From assembly GCA_030587475.2 (NCBI GenBank), contig JAUQYZ020000207.1:1-10228 (forward strand): a stretch of DNA of 10,228 nucleotides, read 5' to 3'. Made by a program: the position numbers and the translations under genes. Of the stretch, positions 487 through 7,510 are shown in pieces; the first letter of the stretch is position 1; the number at the start of each line of letters is the position of its first letter. The notes under the pieces are model-generated. The model was not told where the DNA came from. It was given only the letters and a program-made list of their open reading frames with translations, and did no database searches. This stretch comes from Candidatus Sigynarchaeum calidifontis (GTDB taxonomy: Archaea > Asgardarchaeota > Lokiarchaeia > Sigyniarchaeales > Sigyniarchaeaceae).

Positions 487-494
487 CACCAAAC
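487..494. repeat. Left target-site duplication CACCAAAC
   Basis: An identical 8-mer lies at 2650-2657. Each copy directly abuts a TIR, and 8-bp duplications are typical of IS66. Confidence 0.93.
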
Positions 495-535
495 GTATTA
501 ATTAAGTCCGTAGATCCAATAAATCTACTAGATCC
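495..535 (+). repeat. IS terminal inverted repeat (end downstream of the transposase)
   Basis: GTATTAATTAAGTCCGTAGATCCAATAAATCTACTAGATCC versus the reverse complement of 2609-2649, GTATGAACTAAGTCCTTCGATCCAATAAATTTACTAGGTCC; 6 mismatches. Confidence 0.92.
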
Positions 536-654
536 CTTCTCTTTATAAACATGCGCTTGTTTTTTTCGTTCGATGGCAAGATGGGAGCAAGCGAAGCCGG
601 TTGGATAGCCATCAGAATGGTGATCACGAGATGCTGTTCGCTATCGAATCAAAG

Positions 655-681
655 CACGTTCCCGCACGTCCGGGGAACGTG
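655..681 (-). terminator. Hairpin downstream of the transposase stop, possible terminator or 3' stabilising structure
   Basis: Perfect 9-bp stem CACGTTCCC (655-663) / GGGAACGTG (673-681), 15 nt past the stop codon, followed on the minus strand by CTTT. Confidence 0.45.
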
Positions 682-696
682 ACCGGGAGAAAGAAG

Positions 697-2568
697 TCAC
701 GCGGACACCTTGGCCGCCGCGTCAGGCAGCCGGGGAGGGATCGGTGGCGGGATCTTCAGAAAGGTCAGAATGCCATCCACGTCATTCTCGTGCAACAAGC
801 GAAGTATAACGTCAAACGGGATCTCGTGCTTGAGCCCCGTGTGGTACAAGGACAGCAGCATGGCATATATCTCGAACACCTCTGGATTGACGAAGTTTAC
901 CGAGATCTTGCGCTGGACCACGAAGGGGCGGATATCACGCTCGGCCCGGTTGTTGTCTGGCGGGATGCCAGGGTGATCCAGGTACGTGAAGAGCTTGGAG
1001 GCGAATTTCTCCATGCGCTTGAGCAAGCGTTCGATGTCGGGGCTGGCCGCACCATCGGCACGGATCTTGCTGATGAGGACTCTCATGCGATGTACTGCCG
1101 CTCTCCTGGAGATGCGCTTGTCCATTGGCGTCTTCCAGCCCATGTCGCCATCCTTCCACGCCGCGCCGAAAAAGTCCCGGAGCCACTGCACCTGCTTGAT
1201 GGCTTTTGCTTGCTGTTCCACGTCCGCGGCAAGCTTGGCGCGCTCCTCCTCGGAAAGGGGCGCGGGCTGCTTTGGTGGCCTGCCACGACGTGGTGCTGCC
1301 GGTTCGCTCCCCGCGTCATCATCCACGGTTGTTGCAGCAGCTCTGCAATCCCCGGCCAGCTTTTTCTCCGCGCCCTCGCGGCAGTCGATGGCCTTGCATT
1401 CCAGCACCTTCAAGTCCTGCACCAGGTGTGCCAAGCACTTCTGCTGCTCGGCATCCAGCCGGTTGTAGGCGCTCCAGAAATCCGCGATCAAGATGCCCTT
1501 GTACCCATCGAAAATCGCCTCGACGGTCTCGTGCCCGTGGCTCTCCGATGCCAAGTACAAGATGACATGGCCCGTGACGATAACCCATAACCAGTGATTC
1601 TTGCCATCCATCGGCACGCCGGTCTCGTCCACGCATGTGAACGATGTATCCTTGATCGCGGCACGAAATGCCTCGAACACCCGCCGCACCTGCGGCTCCC
1701 ACCGCTCCATCCAGTTGATGAACGTGACTATCGTCGGGATGATCTCCGGATTCTTCCCTGCAAAAAACCGGATGGGTTTCCTCCGAATGCCATCCCACGT
1801 GCCGCGGCGATCAAGCCGGTCCTCCATTACCAGCGAGATCAAACCGATGCCATAATGCAGCCGAGCGAGGCGCCCGAAATCCTTCGCCACGATCTGATGA
1901 CACCCGGGACAGCGATACCGGTAGATCACGTGTCGAACGCATTCCAATAACATCCCGTTTTCAAGCTTCACGACATCGATGATGAGGTGATGCCACTTCC
2001 CGACATGCCGGGTGCCTTCCAGCGACCTCCCGCAACGAGGACATCGATCTAGCCGCCATTCCACTTCCCGGTCGATCTTTTTAGGTGCCTTGAATCCCCC
2101 GCCATTTTTTCCCTTCGGTTTGCCGGTTCGCTTGTTCTTGGGTGGAATCTCGCCTTCAAATGAATCAGATGCTTGATTCGCTGCGACAAGCTTGGATTGG
2201 CGTCGCTTTCGGGCCGCCATCCGAATCCTCTTGTTTTCCTCGTGGTATCCATCAAGATTTTCCGCTTTTTTCTGCCCACGCGTCTTGAGTTTCAAGACCT
2301 CGGCCTTCAAACGAGCGTTCTCTTCCTCCAGCGCGGCCATGCGGGACGCGTTAGGTTCGATCTCTGGCGTCTTATTGCCTTCTGCGCTTCCCTCGAGACG
2401 ACGCGACATGGCAAGGGCACATCCAGGCAATCGAGCATTTATAGGAGAGGGCGTGATACTATCCTCGCTTGATGCCTTTTGTCGAGACCGCCTTTTTCCC
2501 TTTCTCACGACAATGGTGAAAACAAGAGCGATCATCATCGCGACAGGAAACAAGACCACGGGATGCAC
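697..2568 (-). CDS. tnpC: IS66-family DDE transposase (TnpC-like)
   Basis: Coiled coil (LEEENARLKAEVLKLK), zinc finger (CPRCG...YRCPGCH), and IS66 motifs VDETG, WLWV, ILIADFWSAY, QKCLAH and PPDNNRAERDIR. Confidence 0.93.
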   Translation of the reverse strand: MHPVVLFPVAMMIALVFTIVVRKGKRRSRQKASSEDSITPSPINARLPGCALAMSRRLEGSAEGNKTPEIEPNASRMAALEEENARLKAEVLKLKTRGQKKAENLDGYHEENKRIRMAARKRRQSKLVAANQASDSFEGEIPPKNKRTGKPKGKNGGGFKAPKKIDREVEWRLDRCPRCGRSLEGTRHVGKWHHLIIDVVKLENGMLLECVRHVIYRYRCPGCHQIVAKDFGRLARLHYGIGLISLVMEDRLDRRGTWDGIRRKPIRFFAGKNPEIIPTIVTFINWMERWEPQVRRVFEAFRAAIKDTSFTCVDETGVPMDGKNHWLWVIVTGHVILYLASESHGHETVEAIFDGYKGILIADFWSAYNRLDAEQQKCLAHLVQDLKVLECKAIDCREGAEKKLAGDCRAAATTVDDDAGSEPAAPRRGRPPKQPAPLSEEERAKLAADVEQQAKAIKQVQWLRDFFGAAWKDGDMGWKTPMDKRISRRAAVHRMRVLISKIRADGAASPDIERLLKRMEKFASKLFTYLDHPGIPPDNNRAERDIRPFVVQRKISVNFVNPEVFEIYAMLLSLYHTGLKHEIPFDVILRLLHENDVDGILTFLKIPPPIPPRLPDAAAKVSA

Positions 2569-2591
2569 GTGATCGTATCACGGCGTGATGG

Positions 2592-2603
2592 ATATAAACT
2601 TCA
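2592..2603 (-). promoter_or_regulatory. Putative BRE/TATA promoter of the transposase (leaderless spacing)
   Basis: Minus strand TGAAG-TTTATAT just inside the TIR. The TATA ends 24 nt before the GTG at 2568. Confidence 0.6.
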
Positions 2604-2608
2604 AGACC

Positions 2609-2649
2609 GGACCTAGTAAATTTATTGGATCGAAGGACTTAGTTCATAC
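2609..2649 (-). repeat. IS terminal inverted repeat (end upstream of the transposase)
   Basis: Partner of 495-535; begins 5'-GTAT on the minus strand. Confidence 0.92.
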
Positions 2650-2657
2650 CACCAAAC
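2650..2657. repeat. Right target-site duplication CACCAAAC
   Basis: Identical to 487-494. Confidence 0.93.
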
Positions 2658-2762: not shown

Positions 2763-3197
2763 ATGGAAAAACCGGATCTACTCAAGCTTCTCCCCGCGAT
2801 CCTGGGATTCGCGGGGCTTGCAATCCCAGCCTTCAGTGCTAGATACCCGGTCGTATTCTGGGTATTCGGGGGTTATGCCAGCGATAGCGGTTTCGATATG
2901 ATCAATTTTGCTAGTGCCGGTCTGCTGGAAGATAACCCCAAACTCCTCTTGATTCTCGTCAGTGCCATCTTGCTCGCCGTCGGTGCCGTCTTGGCGCTGC
3001 TATCGGGGCTCGGCGTGCTCAAGATGGGGAAGGTGGCTTGGCTCCCTGGCGTGTTGATGATCGCCGCTTTGCCGCTGTACATGATTGGTACCTGGGAAAC
3101 CGAGATCTTGGAAGCCGCCCCTATCGTTGTCAACCTGATCTGCGGCGCGGTGGGCGGTGTCTGGTCGATCGTGAACGCGGTCAAAGCGAATAAATAG
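2763..3197 (+). CDS. Hypothetical integral membrane protein (about 4 hydrophobic segments)
   Basis: 144 aa with hydrophobic stretches LLPAILGFAGLAIPAF, LLLILVSAILLAVGAVLALLSGLGVL, WLPGVLMIAALPLYMIG and IVVNLICGAVGGVWSIV. TATA upstream and T7 tract at 3244-3250 downstream. Confidence 0.85.
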   Translation: MEKPDLLKLLPAILGFAGLAIPAFSARYPVVFWVFGGYASDSGFDMINFASAGLLEDNPKLLLILVSAILLAVGAVLALLSGLGVLKMGKVAWLPGVLMIAALPLYMIGTWETEILEAAPIVVNLICGAVGGVWSIVNAVKANK

Positions 3198-3254: not shown

Positions 3255-3849
3255 TCACGTGCATGCTGGCGTCGCGTGGCCGATGGCCAGGAGGGCGGCG
3301 TCGAGGCTGGCCCTCGCCGCAGGCTTGAAATACGTGTACGGGCATACAGCGGCGTTGTTCTCCTTTATCATGAAGTGGATGTGGGCACCGTCAGCCTCGT
3401 GTAGCAGCGTGCCGAGCAGCGCACCGGCGGCGACCCGCGTGCACGCCTTGACAGCGATGGCTTGCTCTTGCAAGCGCGCCGCCGGCTCGCCAGTCGCCCA
3501 AGACTCGAAGGCGATCTCCAGCATCCAGGTGAACCTCATCGAGCCACGCACGTTGGTCTGCCAGTGGCCGCCTTTCTCGTTGTACCAGCACTTCACTACG
3601 AACACGAACACGTCGCACGGCGCGACGATGCGCGTCGAGACGTTGATGAAGAAATCGAAACCATTGTGACCTGAGCTATTGAACCCTTGGAACTGGATGA
3701 ACGTGCCGAAGTCCTCGAGCGGTAACCGGATTGACGGTGCTTGCCCGGGGGGCCAGCGGGAACACAGCGAACGCGAAGATGGCGAGCGTGCTCCCCGCGG
3801 CGATGCCGATGGCGGGGAAAGCACCCGCGATCTTGGTCGATTTTTTCAT
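3255..3849 (-). pseudogene. M23-family metallopeptidase-like gene with N-terminal signal/anchor, split by a one-base frameshift
   Basis: The downstream frame has the M23 zinc motifs HNGFD (HxxxD) and HIHF (HxH), plus IVAPCD and a terminal CPYTY. The upstream frame from ATG 3849 is MKKSTKIAGAFPAIGIAAGSTLAIFAFAVFPL. Removing one base, e.g. from the G6 run at 3747-3752, joins them. Confidence 0.75.
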
Positions 3850-4023: not shown

Positions 4024-6006
4024 TCAGAATTCATTGCCGAGCCTGGATAAATAGCGGACTTGGATGCCTTCGAGCTTGTCACCGAGGAACACGATCTCGC
4101 GGAACGCTCCGTATTCCCGCTTCTCTTCTTGACGGCGGATGCCGAGGGATGGTGTCTGGAGGACGAACGGCCGGTTGTCTTGCACGAAGGAGGGGGGCTC
4201 GTTGTCCGTGAAGTCGTCCCAGGTAATCTCGAGGAGGCGCTTCTTCAAGATCTCGTCCATCGCAAGCGGGGCTAGCTCGTCTTCCTTCGCCTTGAAACCG
4301 AAGCGAAACTCCCGCTGGAGGTGCGTGTGGCCGCAAAGCGCCGTCATGCGATGTTTATAGAGTAATTTCAAGATCTGGTCTCGATTTTTCGAGATCGTGC
4401 CTATCCCGAAGTCGAGGTCGTGGACGACGTTCATGTCGGTGCGTCCGTGGGCTTTCAGGCTGGCTACCTTGTAATATTCCGGCGGTGCGTGTTTCTTGCC
4501 GCGTAGAATGCCCTGGACAGATTTCCACAATGCCCCCTTGAGCGCGGGATTCAAGATGGGCGAGTGCAAGACGAGGAAGCTCGTCGAGCCGTCATGACAC
4601 GATGTACACGATTCCAGCACGCGGCGGGTGAACGTGAGCTGCGTGTCCTTCAAGCCAACGCAGCCAGGATTGGCCATGAGCAGGCTCTTGATGTTGAGAA
4701 AGCTGTCGGCCCCCGAGTTGAGCATGATGAAAAGGCGATTGCCGAGCTTGACGAAATAGTCATCGAACGGGTTAATGTGCTGGTAATAGGGCTTCAAGCA
4801 ATACTTGTCGATGACGAGGGCCTTCTCCGCGGATAGCTTGACGGGATCCTTGTACAACATGGCCTCGAAGCGGGTGAGGCCGAAGTACTTGTAATAGCCC
4901 ATGGCCGTGAGAGGATAACCGTGCACGCGAACGTCGTGATTGCCGGGGAGTGTAAAGACGGGCACCGCGATCTCCTCGTGACGCACGATCTTCGTGGGTT
5001 CGCAGCCGTGCCGGTACGCGATGGGAAGGTTAAGCAAGATACGAAGAAAAATATCCCAATTCGTGTCGCCAAGCGAATAGCTGGTTTTCTGGACGGATTC
5101 CTTCAAGCAATAATCGATGATGTCGCCCGTGATCAGCACGAGATCGAGATGTTCGCGCGCTGCTGCTTGGTTCGCCCAGATGATGAACTGCCGCAGCTTG
5201 TTGTTGGGGTTCTGGAAACGCCGGTTGAGCGGGTTGAACCGGCTGTATTCTGTTTCCTGGAAGATTTCTTCTTGTACTTTCTGCTTGCTTGCCTTGCGCC
5301 TGGTTTTTCCCTTGAAGAAGTCAGCGACCCGAGTCATGTCGAGGATGTCGCCGAACGGGCCGATGAACCCCGAGAGGTTGTCCAGCACCTCGTCCCAACG
5401 CCGGGCGACATGGAGGTCCGTGATGTGAGCCACGTGGAACGACTTGTAGTCCTTGTTGCGCAGCACGACGGCGTGATAACACGATCGCTCGCGTTCTGGG
5501 GTGCCACCTTGGAACGCTTGCACGAGATCGAACATGAGGAACGCGTGGTTCCGCAGCCACTCGCGGCACTCTGCCGGCGCTTGCGAGAAGTCGATGCTGG
5601 CGGTCGCGTGGAACAAGGCGCGGCTCTTGCCGAAAAAATCGTGGCGGAGCAAGTAACTCTGTCGATCTTGCCGGTTCTGGTACAAGCTCGACAGGGGGGA
5701 CGTGCCGAGCAACAAGCAAGGGGTGTTCTGCACGGGGGCGAGTTGTATCGGTACGGGCGTACCGCGCCGGAGCCGGCGCGTGCCGGGCACGGTCCCGAAG
5801 AGCGGCACGGCGGAAAGCTTGCTCGCGAGCCGCTCGTGCACCTGCGCGGCGCTCATCTGCCGTGGACCGATGATGTTAACCGTGAATCGATATACATCCT
5901 TGGAATCCGGTTCCTTGGCCTCCTGATCGAGAAATGCCGGGATACCAAGATTTGGCGAGATGATCGCGGGCTCCGTGTCGGGAATATCGGGAATGTCGGG
6001 AAACAT
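4024..6006 (-). CDS. Large calcineurin-like metallophosphoesterase with uncharacterised N-terminal region
   Basis: All five motifs in order: HITDLH, TGDIID, PGNHD, VLHSP and CGHTH. ATG 6006 (MFPDIPDIPD) is preferred over the upstream GTG at 6033. Confidence 0.88.
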   Translation of the reverse strand: MFPDIPDIPDTEPAIISPNLGIPAFLDQEAKEPDSKDVYRFTVNIIGPRQMSAAQVHERLASKLSAVPLFGTVPGTRRLRRGTPVPIQLAPVQNTPCLLLGTSPLSSLYQNRQDRQSYLLRHDFFGKSRALFHATASIDFSQAPAECREWLRNHAFLMFDLVQAFQGGTPERERSCYHAVVLRNKDYKSFHVAHITDLHVARRWDEVLDNLSGFIGPFGDILDMTRVADFFKGKTRRKASKQKVQEEIFQETEYSRFNPLNRRFQNPNNKLRQFIIWANQAAAREHLDLVLITGDIIDYCLKESVQKTSYSLGDTNWDIFLRILLNLPIAYRHGCEPTKIVRHEEIAVPVFTLPGNHDVRVHGYPLTAMGYYKYFGLTRFEAMLYKDPVKLSAEKALVIDKYCLKPYYQHINPFDDYFVKLGNRLFIMLNSGADSFLNIKSLLMANPGCVGLKDTQLTFTRRVLESCTSCHDGSTSFLVLHSPILNPALKGALWKSVQGILRGKKHAPPEYYKVASLKAHGRTDMNVVHDLDFGIGTISKNRDQILKLLYKHRMTALCGHTHLQREFRFGFKAKEDELAPLAMDEILKKRLLEITWDDFTDNEPPSFVQDNRPFVLQTPSLGIRRQEEKREYGAFREIVFLGDKLEGIQVRYLSRLGNEF

Positions 6007-6078
6007 GCGCGTGGTCACGCGTGTTAATTGCACGTAAGAATACCAGCAGCATTCGAGAAAAGGATTGGTGGCAGATTT

Positions 6079-6982: not shown

Positions 6983-7510
6983 ATGATGCCCATGCCGCAA
7001 AAGTACAAACTCAAGGTGGTAATCATCGGCGAACACGCTGCTGGAAAGACAAGTCTCATCAAATCTTTCGTCGAGGGAAAGTTTACGGCGGATTACCGCC
7101 CCACGATCGGAACGAACATCTTCATCAAAAAACTTGAATTCGAAAACGGCGACGAGGCGACCCTAACGGCGTGGGACGTGGCGGGCCAGGAGAGGTGGGT
7201 GAGTATGAGGCCGCTCTATTACAAAGGATCGTCTGGCGCTATAATCGTAGGTGATCTCACGCGCAAATCGACGTTCGACCAAATACTCAAGTTCTGGGCT
7301 CCAGATTTGAAAAAACACGCGGGCGAGACCATTCCTATACTCCTGATTGCCAACAAGAGCGATCTCGAGCGAGAAGCCACGCTTGCCGATGTCCAGGATT
7401 GCGCGAAGCAGATCGGCGCAATTGACATGATCGAAACGTGCGCCAAGAGCGGCGATAACGTCAACAAAGCCTTCATGACTCTCACCAAGTCGATTCTCAA
7501 GATGAAATGA
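6983..7510 (+). CDS. Rab-like small GTPase (Ras superfamily, Asgard type)
   Basis: G1 GEHAAGKTS, G2 YRPTIG, G3 WDVAGQE, G4 NKSD, G5 ETCAK, and a RabF4-like YYKGS. There is no C-terminal tail or Cys prenylation motif. The start could be 6983, 6986 or 6992. Confidence 0.95.
   Translation: MMPMPQKYKLKVVIIGEHAAGKTSLIKSFVEGKFTADYRPTIGTNIFIKKLEFENGDEATLTAWDVAGQERWVSMRPLYYKGSSGAIIVGDLTRKSTFDQILKFWAPDLKKHAGETIPILLIANKSDLEREATLADVQDCAKQIGAIDMIETCAKSGDNVNKAFMTLTKSILKMK

What the first reader, a model, noticed from the sequence alone, without database searches (positions are those of the whole stretch)
2476..2603. IS66 transposase apparently starting with a membrane signal-anchor
Seen: the ORF opens MHP-VVLFPVAMMIALVFTIVV-RKGKRRSRQK, an 18-residue uncharged hydrophobic stretch followed by a strongly basic cluster, in frame with the whole transposase. 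A TATA box (2598-2592) sits 24 nt before this GTG, the same spacing as the TPR gene promoter, which favours this start over the internal ATGs. Known: IS66 TnpC proteins normally begin with a soluble coiled coil, and the positive-inside rule predicts N-out/C-in topology. Inference: the transposase could be tethered to the cytoplasmic face of the membrane, which might sequester it or localise transposition to membrane-associated or incoming DNA.
Basis: partly seen in the sequence, partly recalled or inferred. Interest (0 to 1): 0.7.

Follow-up and report, generated by a model that had tools for sequence, protein, structure and literature searches.

The report
Membrane-anchored IS66 transposase in Asgard archaea
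A jumping-gene enzyme in an Asgard archaeon begins with a conserved membrane-spanning helix, shared by its whole clade of still-mobile elements, so this DNA-cutting enzyme is probably made tethered to the inside of the cell membrane, which appears not to have been described for such an enzyme.

Summary
Window 495-2649 is a complete single-ORF IS66-family insertion sequence, with 46-nt inverted repeats and the 8-bp duplication CACCAAAC. Its 623-aa transposase (2568-697, minus strand) opens with a 21-residue uncharged hydrophobic run followed by 7 K/R in 10 residues.

The feature is not a quirk of this copy:
- A supported clade of this family (63 of 180 sampled sequences) carries the same N-terminal run, down to about 30% identity. 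The clade was found in one order of the window's phylum.
- The run has a median length of 21 aa. There is almost no K/R before it and 5.8 K/R in the 15 residues after it.
- About 130 outgroup IS66 loci lack it.
- In 20 of 20 loci with upstream DNA, a TATA-like box lies 22-24 nt before the in-frame ATG or GTG that opens the helix. This is leaderless-mRNA spacing.
- Internal ATGs are not conserved.
- The TM segment is under purifying selection (dN/dS about 0.3).
- Truncated database entries are gene-calling artefacts.

AlphaFold gives a helix, a disordered tether, a coiled coil, a Zn ribbon and a DDE core. Membrane insertion itself, and what tethering achieves, remain inferred. A bias towards inserting next to membrane-protein genes is only suggestive (p=0.05). 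Two first-reader notes of this scan saw the same feature on other genomes; no paper describing it was found.

The parts
487..494 (.). Target-site duplication, left copy (CACCAAAC)
   Evidence: Read directly. It is identical to 2650-2657. 8 bp is the IS66-family length.
495..540 (.). Right-end terminal inverted repeat (IRR) of the IS; the outer end reads GTATTAATTAAGTCC
   Evidence: arms 495-540 and 2604-2649, 46 nt, 83% complementary.
542..551 (.). Invariant TTTATAAAGA box just inside IRR, mirroring the TATA box inside IRL. Function unknown: outward or antisense promoter, or part of the end recognised by the transposase
   Evidence: 10 invariant columns in 8 of 8 subclade elements, in a region otherwise about 67% conserved.
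697..2568 (-). IS66-family transposase gene, 623 codons plus stop, GTG start
   Evidence: Pfam DDE_Tnp_IS66 at 2.4e-32. NCBIfam transpos_IS66 at 187.1 bits against a cut-off of 180.
799..1731 (-). DDE catalytic core (about residues 280-590) with invariant D314-E315, D363, C378..H381 and D538-N539..E543-R544
   Evidence: Invariant columns; Pfam match; AF2 pLDDT is mostly 75-92 here.
1900..2070 (-). Zinc-ribbon-like beta region (residues 167-223) with invariant C176, C179, C220, C223
   Evidence: invariant Cys; strands 167-171, 188-202, 205-219; pLDDT 85-92.
2164..2352 (-). Long coiled-coil-type helix (residues 73-135)
   Evidence: helix 73-135, pLDDT 65-83; dN/dS 0.16.
2353..2475 (-). Variable, disordered tether (residues 32-72)
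   Evidence: pLDDT about 30-40, no secondary structure. It varies in length and sequence but is always in frame. dN/dS 0.54.
2476..2505 (-). Basic cluster RKGKRRSRQK (residues 22-31), the predicted cytoplasmic flank
   Evidence: Across the clade there are 5.8 K/R against 1.3 D/E in the 15 residues after the helix.
2506..2565 (-). Predicted transmembrane signal-anchor (residues 2-21, uncharged)
   Evidence: AF2 helix 3-34 with pLDDT 69-87 over residues 1-20. Conserved in the clade.
2566..2568 (-). GTG start codon, probably at or next to the transcription start (leaderless mRNA)
   Evidence: The same CAC-GTG start occurs in 8 close relatives. ATG or GTG sits at the equivalent place, 22-24 nt after the TATA box, in 20 of 20 loci.
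2592..2598 (-). TATA box TTTATAT of the transposase promoter, centred about -27 from the start codon
2604..2649 (.). Left-end terminal inverted repeat (IRL); on the minus strand the outer end reads GTATGAACTAAGTCC
   Evidence: Homologous termini (GTAAGTACTAAGT..GATC type) occur in relatives.
2650..2657 (.). Target-site duplication, right copy (CACCAAAC)
   Evidence: Read: the minus strand at 2657-2650 is GTTTGGTG.

Best explanation
Window 495-2649 is an intact, recently transposed, single-ORF insertion sequence of the IS66 family (ISBst12-like, with no tnpA or tnpB). It belongs to a clade found in one order of Asgard archaea. A TATA box lies immediately inside the left inverted repeat. Transcription most likely starts at or next to the GTG at 2568, giving a leaderless mRNA, so translation begins with the hydrophobic segment.

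The transposase is therefore made as a single-pass membrane protein. Residues 2-21 form an uncleaved N-terminal signal-anchor. The basic cluster (residues 22-31) holds the C-terminal side in the cytoplasm (N-out, C-in). About 40 disordered residues and a 60-residue coiled coil connect the anchor to the Zn-ribbon and the DDE catalytic core, which stay cytoplasmic and can reach DNA.

What is shown: the anatomy of the element, the conservation of the anchor, the promoter spacing, the open frame, purifying selection, and mobility of elements that carry the anchor.

What is inferred: that the helix actually inserts, and what the tether does. My preferred role is that it restricts the enzyme to two dimensions near the place where it is made. 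The anchor is the first thing translated, from a start codon only 81 nt inside the element's left end. If transcription and translation are coupled, co-translational insertion would hold the element's own DNA at the membrane next to the nascent enzyme. That would favour action in cis and keep activity in trans low. It might also bias insertion towards membrane-proximal DNA.
For: The element is real and mobile.
- It has 46-nt inverted repeats and the 8-bp duplication CACCAAAC on both sides.
- It matches Pfam and NCBIfam IS66 models above their cut-offs.
- One relative's identical transposase sits in at least 5 different flanking contexts.
- The catalytic and Cys residues are invariant.

The anchor is conserved.
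- Homologues from 84% down to about 30% identity start with a 16-27-aa uncharged hydrophobic run followed by K/R, although the sequence itself has diverged beyond recognition.
- None of about 130 outgroup IS66 loci has it.
- In a tree, the anchor-bearing sequences form a clade of 63 tips with support 0.94. The 20 tips there that score as lacking it include entries that visibly begin inside the helix. The nearest sister lineages also carry an anchor.

The anchor is translated.
- The frame is open from the anchor to the core in more than 25 divergent loci, despite many indels in the tether.
- Median dN/dS is 0.32 for the TM plus basic region, 0.54 for the tether and 0.12 for the core.
- The coiled coil upstream of the only conserved internal Met is itself constrained (0.16).
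- Internal ATGs are not conserved. L169 and L172 have none between codon 19 and codon 117/127.

The start is leaderless.
- A YTTAWAH box lies 22-24 nt before the in-frame ATG or GTG that opens the helix in 20 of 20 loci, while the distance from IRL to the start varies between 73 and 102 nt in the loci with a clear inverted repeat.
- The same 23-nt spacing occurs at the TPR gene of this window.
- TTTAWAT is modestly enriched 22-24 nt before candidate ATG starts across this genome (17 counts at those three positions, against 10 over positions 10-21).

Structure and topology.
- AF2 gives helix 3-34, disorder 35-71, helix 73-135, disorder 136-157, then a beta ribbon and the DDE core.
- In 35 sequences there is 1 K/R in total before the helix, against 5.8 K/R per 15 residues after it.
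Against: There is no experimental or transcript evidence.

No dedicated TM or signal-peptide predictor was available. The call rests on hydropathy, charge distribution and conservation.

This subclade starts with GTG, and how efficiently a leaderless GTG initiates in these archaea is unknown.

Synonymous divergence in the TM region (pS 0.44-0.48) is lower than in the core (0.58). Some DNA- or RNA-level constraint therefore overlaps this stretch and could inflate the apparent conservation within the close subclade.

A TATA-like box also sits just inside the other end of the element. Part of the TATA conservation could therefore reflect recognition of the ends rather than promoter function.

A few clade copies have a degraded anchor containing R or K (L014, L018, L019). 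At least L014 and L018 keep their ends (perfect 22-nt inverted repeats), so the anchor may not be essential. Whether these copies are still mobile is unknown.

The proposed cis-restriction role is untested. The neighbour-gene bias is only borderline.
Confidence: 0.75

Rival explanations
1. The hydrophobic segment is not part of the functional transposase. Translation starts at an internal codon (the MSRRLEG or MAALEEEN Met, or another), and the upstream in-frame stretch is a 5' leader.
For: Automatic gene calls in databases often start downstream: P0002 at the Met of MAARKRR, P0003 at MPRCLEE, P0004, P0010 and P0011. The start here is GTG with no ribosome-binding site. A GGATGTG motif lies 8 nt before ATG 2408, seen in this copy and in L171 only.
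Against: All of those relatives are open up to the same start and encode the complete helix. Internal Mets are not conserved, and two relatives have no ATG between codon 19 and a Met that lies after the constrained coiled coil. The hydrophobic character and the K/R flank persist at about 30% identity, which an untranslated leader would not preserve. dN/dS is 0.32. The TATA spacing puts the transcript start at the helix's start codon in 20 of 20 loci.
Confidence: 0.07
2. The segment is translated but does not act as a stable membrane anchor. It could be a cleaved secretion signal, a hydrophobic degron or aggregation tag that keeps the transposase level low, or a protein-protein interaction helix.
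For: No localisation data exist. AF2 predicts only a helix, which says nothing about its environment. Many transposases are kept scarce by instability (established for IS903, IS10 and IS50; from general knowledge).
Against: The run length (median 21, range 16-27) and the complete lack of charge match a bilayer span. The charge asymmetry (K/R almost only after the helix) is the reverse of a cleavable signal peptide and fits an N-out, C-in anchor. A DDE enzyme that acts on DNA has no plausible role outside the cell. A degron would not need a conserved length and a conserved positive flank.
Confidence: 0.12
3. The gene is a domesticated, no longer mobile, membrane-anchored transposase relic. Membrane-tethered HUH transposase domains noted elsewhere in this scan are of that kind.
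For: Earlier scan notes describe anchored, immobile transposase relics in other phyla. Only one copy is present in this incomplete MAG.
Against: The ends are intact and there is a perfect 8-bp duplication. The catalytic residues are invariant. Identical or near-identical copies occur in different contexts. The distribution across genomes is patchy, 15 of 400. Neighbours are not conserved.
Confidence: 0.03

Closest known systems
IS66 family, single-ORF ISBst12 group (ISfinder classification; from general knowledge)
   Same: It has the DDE_Tnp_IS66 core with the C..H motif after the second D. It scores above the cut-off for NCBIfam transpos_IS66. It makes an 8-bp target duplication. Its inverted repeats begin GTA(A/T). 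It has one ORF and no tnpA or tnpB. A coiled-coil helix and a Cys4 ribbon lie upstream of the core.
   Different: About 72 residues have been added before the coiled coil: an N-terminal transmembrane signal-anchor, a basic cluster and a disordered tether. Expression is from an archaeal TATA box with leaderless spacing. The clade was found in one order of Asgard archaea. The Pfam models LZ_Tnp_IS66, zf-IS66 and DDE_Tnp_IS66_C are not detected at E <= 0.01.
Canonical IS66 / ISRm14-type elements with tnpA-tnpB-tnpC
   Same: The same transposase family (TnpC) and the same type of ends.
   Different: The accessory genes tnpA and tnpB are absent. The 2155-bp element holds only the transposase gene. 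Canonical TnpC proteins start with a soluble leucine zipper, and outgroup sequences here show this.
Tn5/IS50 transposase and inhibitor, reported to associate with the E. coli inner membrane (DeLong and Syvanen, about 1990; recalled from memory, not retrieved)
   Same: A DDE transposase found at the cytoplasmic membrane. Its biology is strongly cis-acting.
   Different: Tn5 Tnp has no transmembrane segment and its association is peripheral. It belongs to a different family (IS4) and to bacteria.
Membrane-tethered DNA-binding regulators (ToxR/CadC type; regulators released by intramembrane proteolysis)
   Same: A cytoplasmic DNA-binding module is tied to the membrane by a single span. This offers a model for how a tethered protein can still act on DNA, or be released by cleavage.
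   Different: Those proteins have the opposite order (DNA-binding domain at the N-terminus, sensor outside the cell) and are regulators, not recombinases. Here almost nothing is exposed outside the cell (0-4 residues).
Membrane-anchored HUH (IS200/RAYT-like) transposase relics noted earlier in this scan
   Same: A transposase-type domain is fused to a TM helix.
   Different: Those are immobile and partly inactivated, and they come from a different superfamily. Here the element is mobile, with an intact DDE centre, inverted repeats and a target duplication.

Membership tests
IS66 family transposase / insertion sequence | DDE_Tnp_IS66 catalytic domain | tested here: met
   Pfam PF03050 at E 2.4e-32 and 112.9 bits against a cut-off of 23.1. 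NCBIfam NF033517 at 187.1 bits against a cut-off of 180.
IS66 family transposase / insertion sequence | Conserved acidic residues, plus the Cys..His motif after the second Asp | tested here: met
   D314-E315, D363, C378 and H381 (QQKCLAH), D538-N539 and E543 are invariant in 23 and in 35 sequences. Assigning them to the catalytic triad is by analogy, not tested.
IS66 family transposase / insertion sequence | 8-bp target-site duplication | tested here: met
   CACCAAAC at 487-494 and 2650-2657.
IS66 family transposase / insertion sequence | Terminal inverted repeats beginning 5'-GTAA-like | tested here: met
   The 46-nt inverted repeats begin GTAT here. Clade relatives begin GTAAGTAC, GTAAATAC or GTAGATAC.
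Canonical three-gene IS66 group | tnpA and tnpB upstream of tnpC | tested here: not met
   Only 81 nt separate the IRL end from the transposase start. There is no other ORF with family matches in the 2155-bp element. It is therefore filed with the single-ORF (ISBst12-like) group.
IS66 TnpC N-terminal modules | Leucine-zipper helix and zf-IS66 zinc finger | tested here: inconclusive
   Pfam LZ_Tnp_IS66 and zf-IS66 are not detected at E <= 0.01. However, AF2 gives a 63-residue helix and a beta ribbon, and four Cys in that region are invariant.
N-terminal signal-anchor (uncleaved, N-out/C-in) membrane protein | Uncharged hydrophobic segment long enough to span a bilayer, at the N-terminus | tested here: met
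   A 21-residue uncharged run with mean hydropathy 2.36; clade median 21 aa.
N-terminal signal-anchor (uncleaved, N-out/C-in) membrane protein | Positive-inside charge asymmetry | tested here: met
   0 K/R before the helix and 7 K/R in the 10 residues after it. Across the clade: 1 in total before it, against 5.8 per 15 residues after it.
N-terminal signal-anchor (uncleaved, N-out/C-in) membrane protein | Membrane localisation and absence of signal-peptidase cleavage | not testable with these tools
   No DeepTMHMM or SignalP and no experimental data were available.
Leaderless archaeal transcript | TATA box centred about 26-27 nt before the start codon, with no room for a ribosome-binding site | tested here: met
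   23-nt spacer here; 22-24 nt in 20 of 20 clade loci.
Leaderless archaeal transcript | Mapped transcription start at the start codon | not testable with these tools

The most novel reading that the evidence does not exclude
Tethering is the point of the design. The anchor is the first thing translated from a leaderless mRNA that starts 81 nt inside the element's end. Co-translational insertion would pull the element's own DNA to the membrane and confine the enzyme there. That would give strict cis-action and bias new insertions towards DNA that is itself held at the membrane, such as genes for membrane proteins being transcribed and inserted, or DNA entering the cell. This would be a previously unrecognised, spatial way of regulating and targeting transposition. 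It would also make these elements natural reporters of which loci lie at the membrane in Asgard cells.
Probability: 0.2. Interest if true: 0.85.

Novelty: new variant of a known kind. Interest (0 to 1): 0.62.

Why it matters
Transposases are regarded as soluble DNA enzymes. Their self-restraint is usually explained by low expression, instability, inhibitor isoforms or preferential action in cis. A whole clade of active elements whose DDE transposase is born with a membrane anchor would add a spatial mechanism to that list. It also gives clear experiments: remove the helix, then measure transposition frequency, cis/trans ratio and target choice.

The clade lives in Asgard archaea, whose cell biology and membrane-DNA organisation are of wide interest and hard to study. 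A mobile element whose insertion pattern may report membrane-proximal DNA would be a useful probe.

There is also a practical point. Automatic gene calls cut off the anchor in many database entries, which may be why the feature has gone unnoticed.

Tried and rejected
1. Other copies in the window's own genome: none were found, so the ends were defined from the inverted repeats, the target duplication and relatives.

3. Literature. The searches were: IS66 with transmembrane; phrases for a membrane-anchored, membrane-bound or membrane-tethered transposase; N-terminal transmembrane helix with insertion sequence; Asgard with IS66; and Tn5 membrane association. No description of an anchored IS66 or DDE transposase was found. 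A 2026 survey of archaeal insertion sequences mentions IS66 once and membranes not at all.

4. PDB sequence search: no solved relative.

5. Internal-start hypothesis: rejected.

6. A possible soluble isoform from ATG 2408, which has a weak GGATGTG motif 8 nt upstream: the motif and the Met are shared only with the closest relative, so it was not pursued.

7. Insertion next to membrane-protein genes. A first look suggested about 7 of 15 neighbours. With 28 insertion contexts it fell to 7 of 41 neighbours against 9 of 145 distal genes with at least 3 TM segments (p=0.052), and p=0.27 at a threshold of at least 2 TM. Gene calls and TM counts were crude. It is reported as suggestive only.

8. Genome-wide TATA spacing with a strict motif gave only a modest peak, because the motif is rare in this genome.

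9. An antisense small ORF downstream of the TATA box inside IRR (ATG 573): not conserved.
Full report
**Observation.** On the minus strand an ORF runs from GTG 2568 to the stop at 699-697 and encodes 623 residues. An in-frame TGA lies four codons upstream. TTTATAT lies at 2598-2592, 23 nt before the GTG. Hydropathy over 17 residues is 2.84 at residues 4-20, against at most 1.38 elsewhere in the protein.

**What the element is.** The protein matches Pfam DDE_Tnp_IS66 (E 2.4e-32) and passes the NCBIfam transpos_IS66 cut-off (187.1 against 180 bits).
- Inverted repeats of 46 nt (83% complementary) lie at 495-540 and 2604-2649.
- They are flanked by a perfect 8-bp direct repeat, CACCAAAC, at 487-494 and 2650-2657 (read). 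This is the target-duplication length typical of IS66.
- The 2155-bp element holds only this gene, so it belongs with the single-ORF (ISBst12-like) branch and not with the tnpA-tnpB-tnpC type.
- The MAG (269 contigs, 89% complete) shows one copy.
- Named database relatives come from Sigynarchaeota, Lokiarchaeia and Promethearchaeota MAGs. One entry is labelled Deltaproteobacteria and one short contig Hyphomicrobiales.
- In a scan of 400 genomes of the phylum, 15 had a clade member, all in the same order as the window's genome.

**Is the hydrophobic N-terminus conserved?** Yes, and well beyond the close relatives.
- In the protein alignment and in a hydropathy census, homologues at 71%, 50%, 43% and 32% identity begin with a hydrophobic run followed by K/R. 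Examples are MHPVVLFPVAIMVALVFTLIAKRCRRGSRRK, MVLFPVVLMVALAFILFVKRFKR, MGLWLSFSVLLAVISMLLCHIFRQKRNKYEK and MIAFILILILTFFYIFSLFKVKRKYKRD. The residues themselves are not conserved.
- I then ignored gene calls and read the DNA of 24 clade loci from metagenomes and genomes. In nearly all, the frame of the transposase core stays open upstream to a point a few codons before a start codon that directly precedes such a run.
- The exceptions are visibly decayed copies: L017 is truncated, L023 is broken, and L014, L018 and L019 have R or K inside the run.
- Among about 130 outgroup IS66 loci (cyanobacteria, Deinococcus, Dehalococcoidia and others, below 31% identity), none has an N-terminal run of this kind.
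- In an exhaustive representative search, the family splits sharply into about 25 full-length clade clusters and thousands of ordinary IS66 proteins. A few of the nearest outgroup representatives also start with an anchor.
- In a FastTree phylogeny of 180 sequences, the locus-derived anchor-bearing sequences define a clade of 63 tips (support 0.94). The 20 tips there that score as lacking an anchor include entries that visibly begin inside the helix. The successive sister lineages also contain anchor-bearing members.
- In 35 full-length members, chosen for carrying the helix, the uncharged run has a median of 21 residues (16-27) and a mean hydropathy of 2.36. There is one K/R in total before it, and 5.8 K/R against 1.3 D/E in the 15 residues after it. 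This is the signature of an uncleaved N-out, C-in signal-anchor, and the opposite of a secretion signal.

**Is it translated?**
- Several database entries start downstream: P0002 at the Met of MAARKRR; P0003, P0004, P0010 and P0011 after the helix; P0006, P0007 and P0009 inside it. Of these I fetched the DNA of P0003, P0006, P0007, P0009, P0010 and P0011 (L004). All are open up to the same TGA and share the same CAC-GTG start and a complete helix. The short entries are gene-calling artefacts: a GTG start with no ribosome-binding site.
- Nei-Gojobori estimates over nine subclade sequences give a median dN/dS of 0.32 for the TM plus basic region, 0.54 for the tether, 0.16 for the coiled coil and 0.12 for the core. 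The segment is under purifying selection, though more relaxed than the core. Replacements keep hydrophobicity.
- The tether differs in length and sequence between lineages but never breaks the frame.
- The internal Mets proposed as alternative starts are not conserved. The MAALEEEN Met is I, L or V in most relatives. L169 and L172 have no ATG between codon 19 and the Met that follows the constrained coiled coil.

**Promoter and start.**
- In 20 of 20 clade loci with upstream sequence, a YTTAWAH heptamer lies 22-24 nt before the in-frame ATG or GTG that opens the helix. In L006, L008 and L010 this spacing picks a GTG a few codons inside the longest ORF.
- The distance from the outer end of IRL to the start varies between 73 and 102 nt in the loci with a clear inverted repeat. 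The constant quantity is therefore TATA-to-start, not end-to-start.
- A TATA box centred about 27 nt before the first base of the start codon is the standard archaeal geometry for a transcript that begins at the start codon (established knowledge). The TPR gene of the same window has the same geometry.
- TTTAWAT is modestly enriched 22-24 nt before candidate ATG starts in this genome.
- I therefore read the mRNA as leaderless, which makes the helix the first thing the ribosome produces. This is inferred.

**Architecture.** AlphaFold2 on a 35-sequence alignment (mean pLDDT 70) gives the following.
- Helix 3-34 (pLDDT 69-87 over the first 20 residues).
- A disordered stretch, 35-71 (pLDDT about 30-40).
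- One long helix, 73-135.
- A disordered basic Gly-rich stretch, 136-157.
- A beta ribbon in the region that holds the four invariant Cys (C176, C179, C220, C223).
- The DDE core, with invariant D314-E315, D363, C378..H381 and D538-N539..E543.

No solved relative exists in the PDB by sequence.

**Mobility of anchored elements.** The window copy has intact ends and a perfect duplication. One relative's identical protein sits in at least five different flanking contexts. A 99%-identical protein exists on another contig (P0002). MAGs carry intact copies, as well as decayed ones, at unrelated places. This excludes a domesticated relic.

**Mechanism.** Shown: a mobile IS66-type element whose transposase gene begins, in frame and under selection, with a segment that has every sequence property of a membrane signal-anchor. 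It is preceded by a promoter at leaderless distance.

Inferred: the enzyme inserts with 0-4 residues outside the cell. Its catalytic part stays in the cytoplasm on a flexible tether and a coiled coil that probably dimerises.

My preferred functional reading is spatial restraint. The anchor emerges from the ribosome when only about 200 nt of the gene have been transcribed. If transcription and translation are coupled, insertion would hold the element's left end close to the membrane-bound nascent enzyme. That would favour binding to its own ends and limit activity on other copies.

Alternatives are regulated release by proteolysis, or action on membrane-proximal DNA. As a first test of target bias, I compared the genes next to 28 insertions with more distant genes on the same contigs. 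With at least 3 predicted TM segments, 7 of 41 neighbours qualify against 9 of 145 distal genes (Fisher p=0.052). At a threshold of at least 2 TM, p=0.27. Gene calls and TM counts were crude and the insertions are not all independent, so this is a lead and not a result.

**Comparison with what is known.** The element meets the tested IS66 criteria except for the accessory genes, so it is a member of the single-ORF branch. The anchor, basic cluster and tether are additions that outgroup IS66 proteins lack. Full-text searches found no paper on a membrane-anchored IS66 or DDE transposase. A 2026 survey of archaeal insertion sequences does not mention the feature. From memory only, Tn5 transposase was reported to associate peripherally with the inner membrane; I could not retrieve that work.

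Two first-reader notes of this scan (e1-5539458 and e1-5620657) recorded the same kind of N-terminus on other genomes. One of them describes a start followed by RRIIRRR, like locus L085. These notes are unchecked and are not independent support, but they show that the scan met the feature before on other DNA.

**Verdict.** The reading that this is a membrane-tethered transposase is supported by comparative evidence (about 0.75). Its biological consequence is open. It is a new variant of a known kind and of moderate to high interest.

Noticed in passing
window 542-551 (and the equivalent place in L004, L164, L169-L173): An invariant TTTATAAAGA lies just inside the right inverted repeat in 8 of 8 subclade elements, mirroring the TATA box just inside the left repeat. 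It could be an outward-reading or antisense promoter, or part of the extended end that the transposase recognises. An ATG 24 nt downstream of it on the plus strand (573) opens only an 11-codon ORF and is not conserved.
   Followed up: partly
window 2763-3197 (+); L015, L009, L197, L200, L202 flanks: The gene 106 nt from the IS left end encodes a 144-aa protein with about 4 hydrophobic spans. Several other clade insertions also sit beside polytopic membrane-protein genes (7 of 41 neighbours against 9 of 145 distal genes, p=0.052). This is suggestive only.
   Followed up: partly
database proteins P0002, P0003, P0004, P0006, P0007, P0009, P0010, P0011 and others: Automatic gene calls for this clade often start inside or after the helix, so the anchor is missing from many public protein entries.
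   Followed up: yes
L016 about 470-650; P0038 N-terminal 70 aa; L021, L090: In other subclades the region between anchor and core is a coiled coil expanded by tandem repeats such as LQEKDSK or AELQTK. The tether length therefore changes by repeat expansion while staying in frame.
   Followed up: no
window 6983-7510 (+): A Ras-family small GTPase (Pfam Ras, 1.6e-42), typical of Asgard genomes. An ATTATAC box lies about 18 nt before its ATG.
   Followed up: no
window 4024-6033 (-) and 3255-3824 (-): A 669-aa protein with a calcineurin-like phosphoesterase domain (Metallophos, 7e-09), and a 189-aa ORF with a weak Peptidase_M23 match that is below the Pfam cut-off.
   Followed up: no
L207 3198-3509 (G162:C25): A solo 104-aa ORF begins with an anchor-like MLVYYLLHFLLLFRLFILAKKYLEF. 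It is a 5' remnant of another clade element, a few kb from a frameshifted full copy on the same contig.
   Followed up: no
window 2566-2571 and close relatives: The GTG start is embedded in a conserved palindrome, CACGTG, in all nine subclade elements. Synonymous divergence is lower in the first 30 codons than in the core, which hints at an extra DNA- or RNA-level constraint at the 5' end.
   Followed up: no
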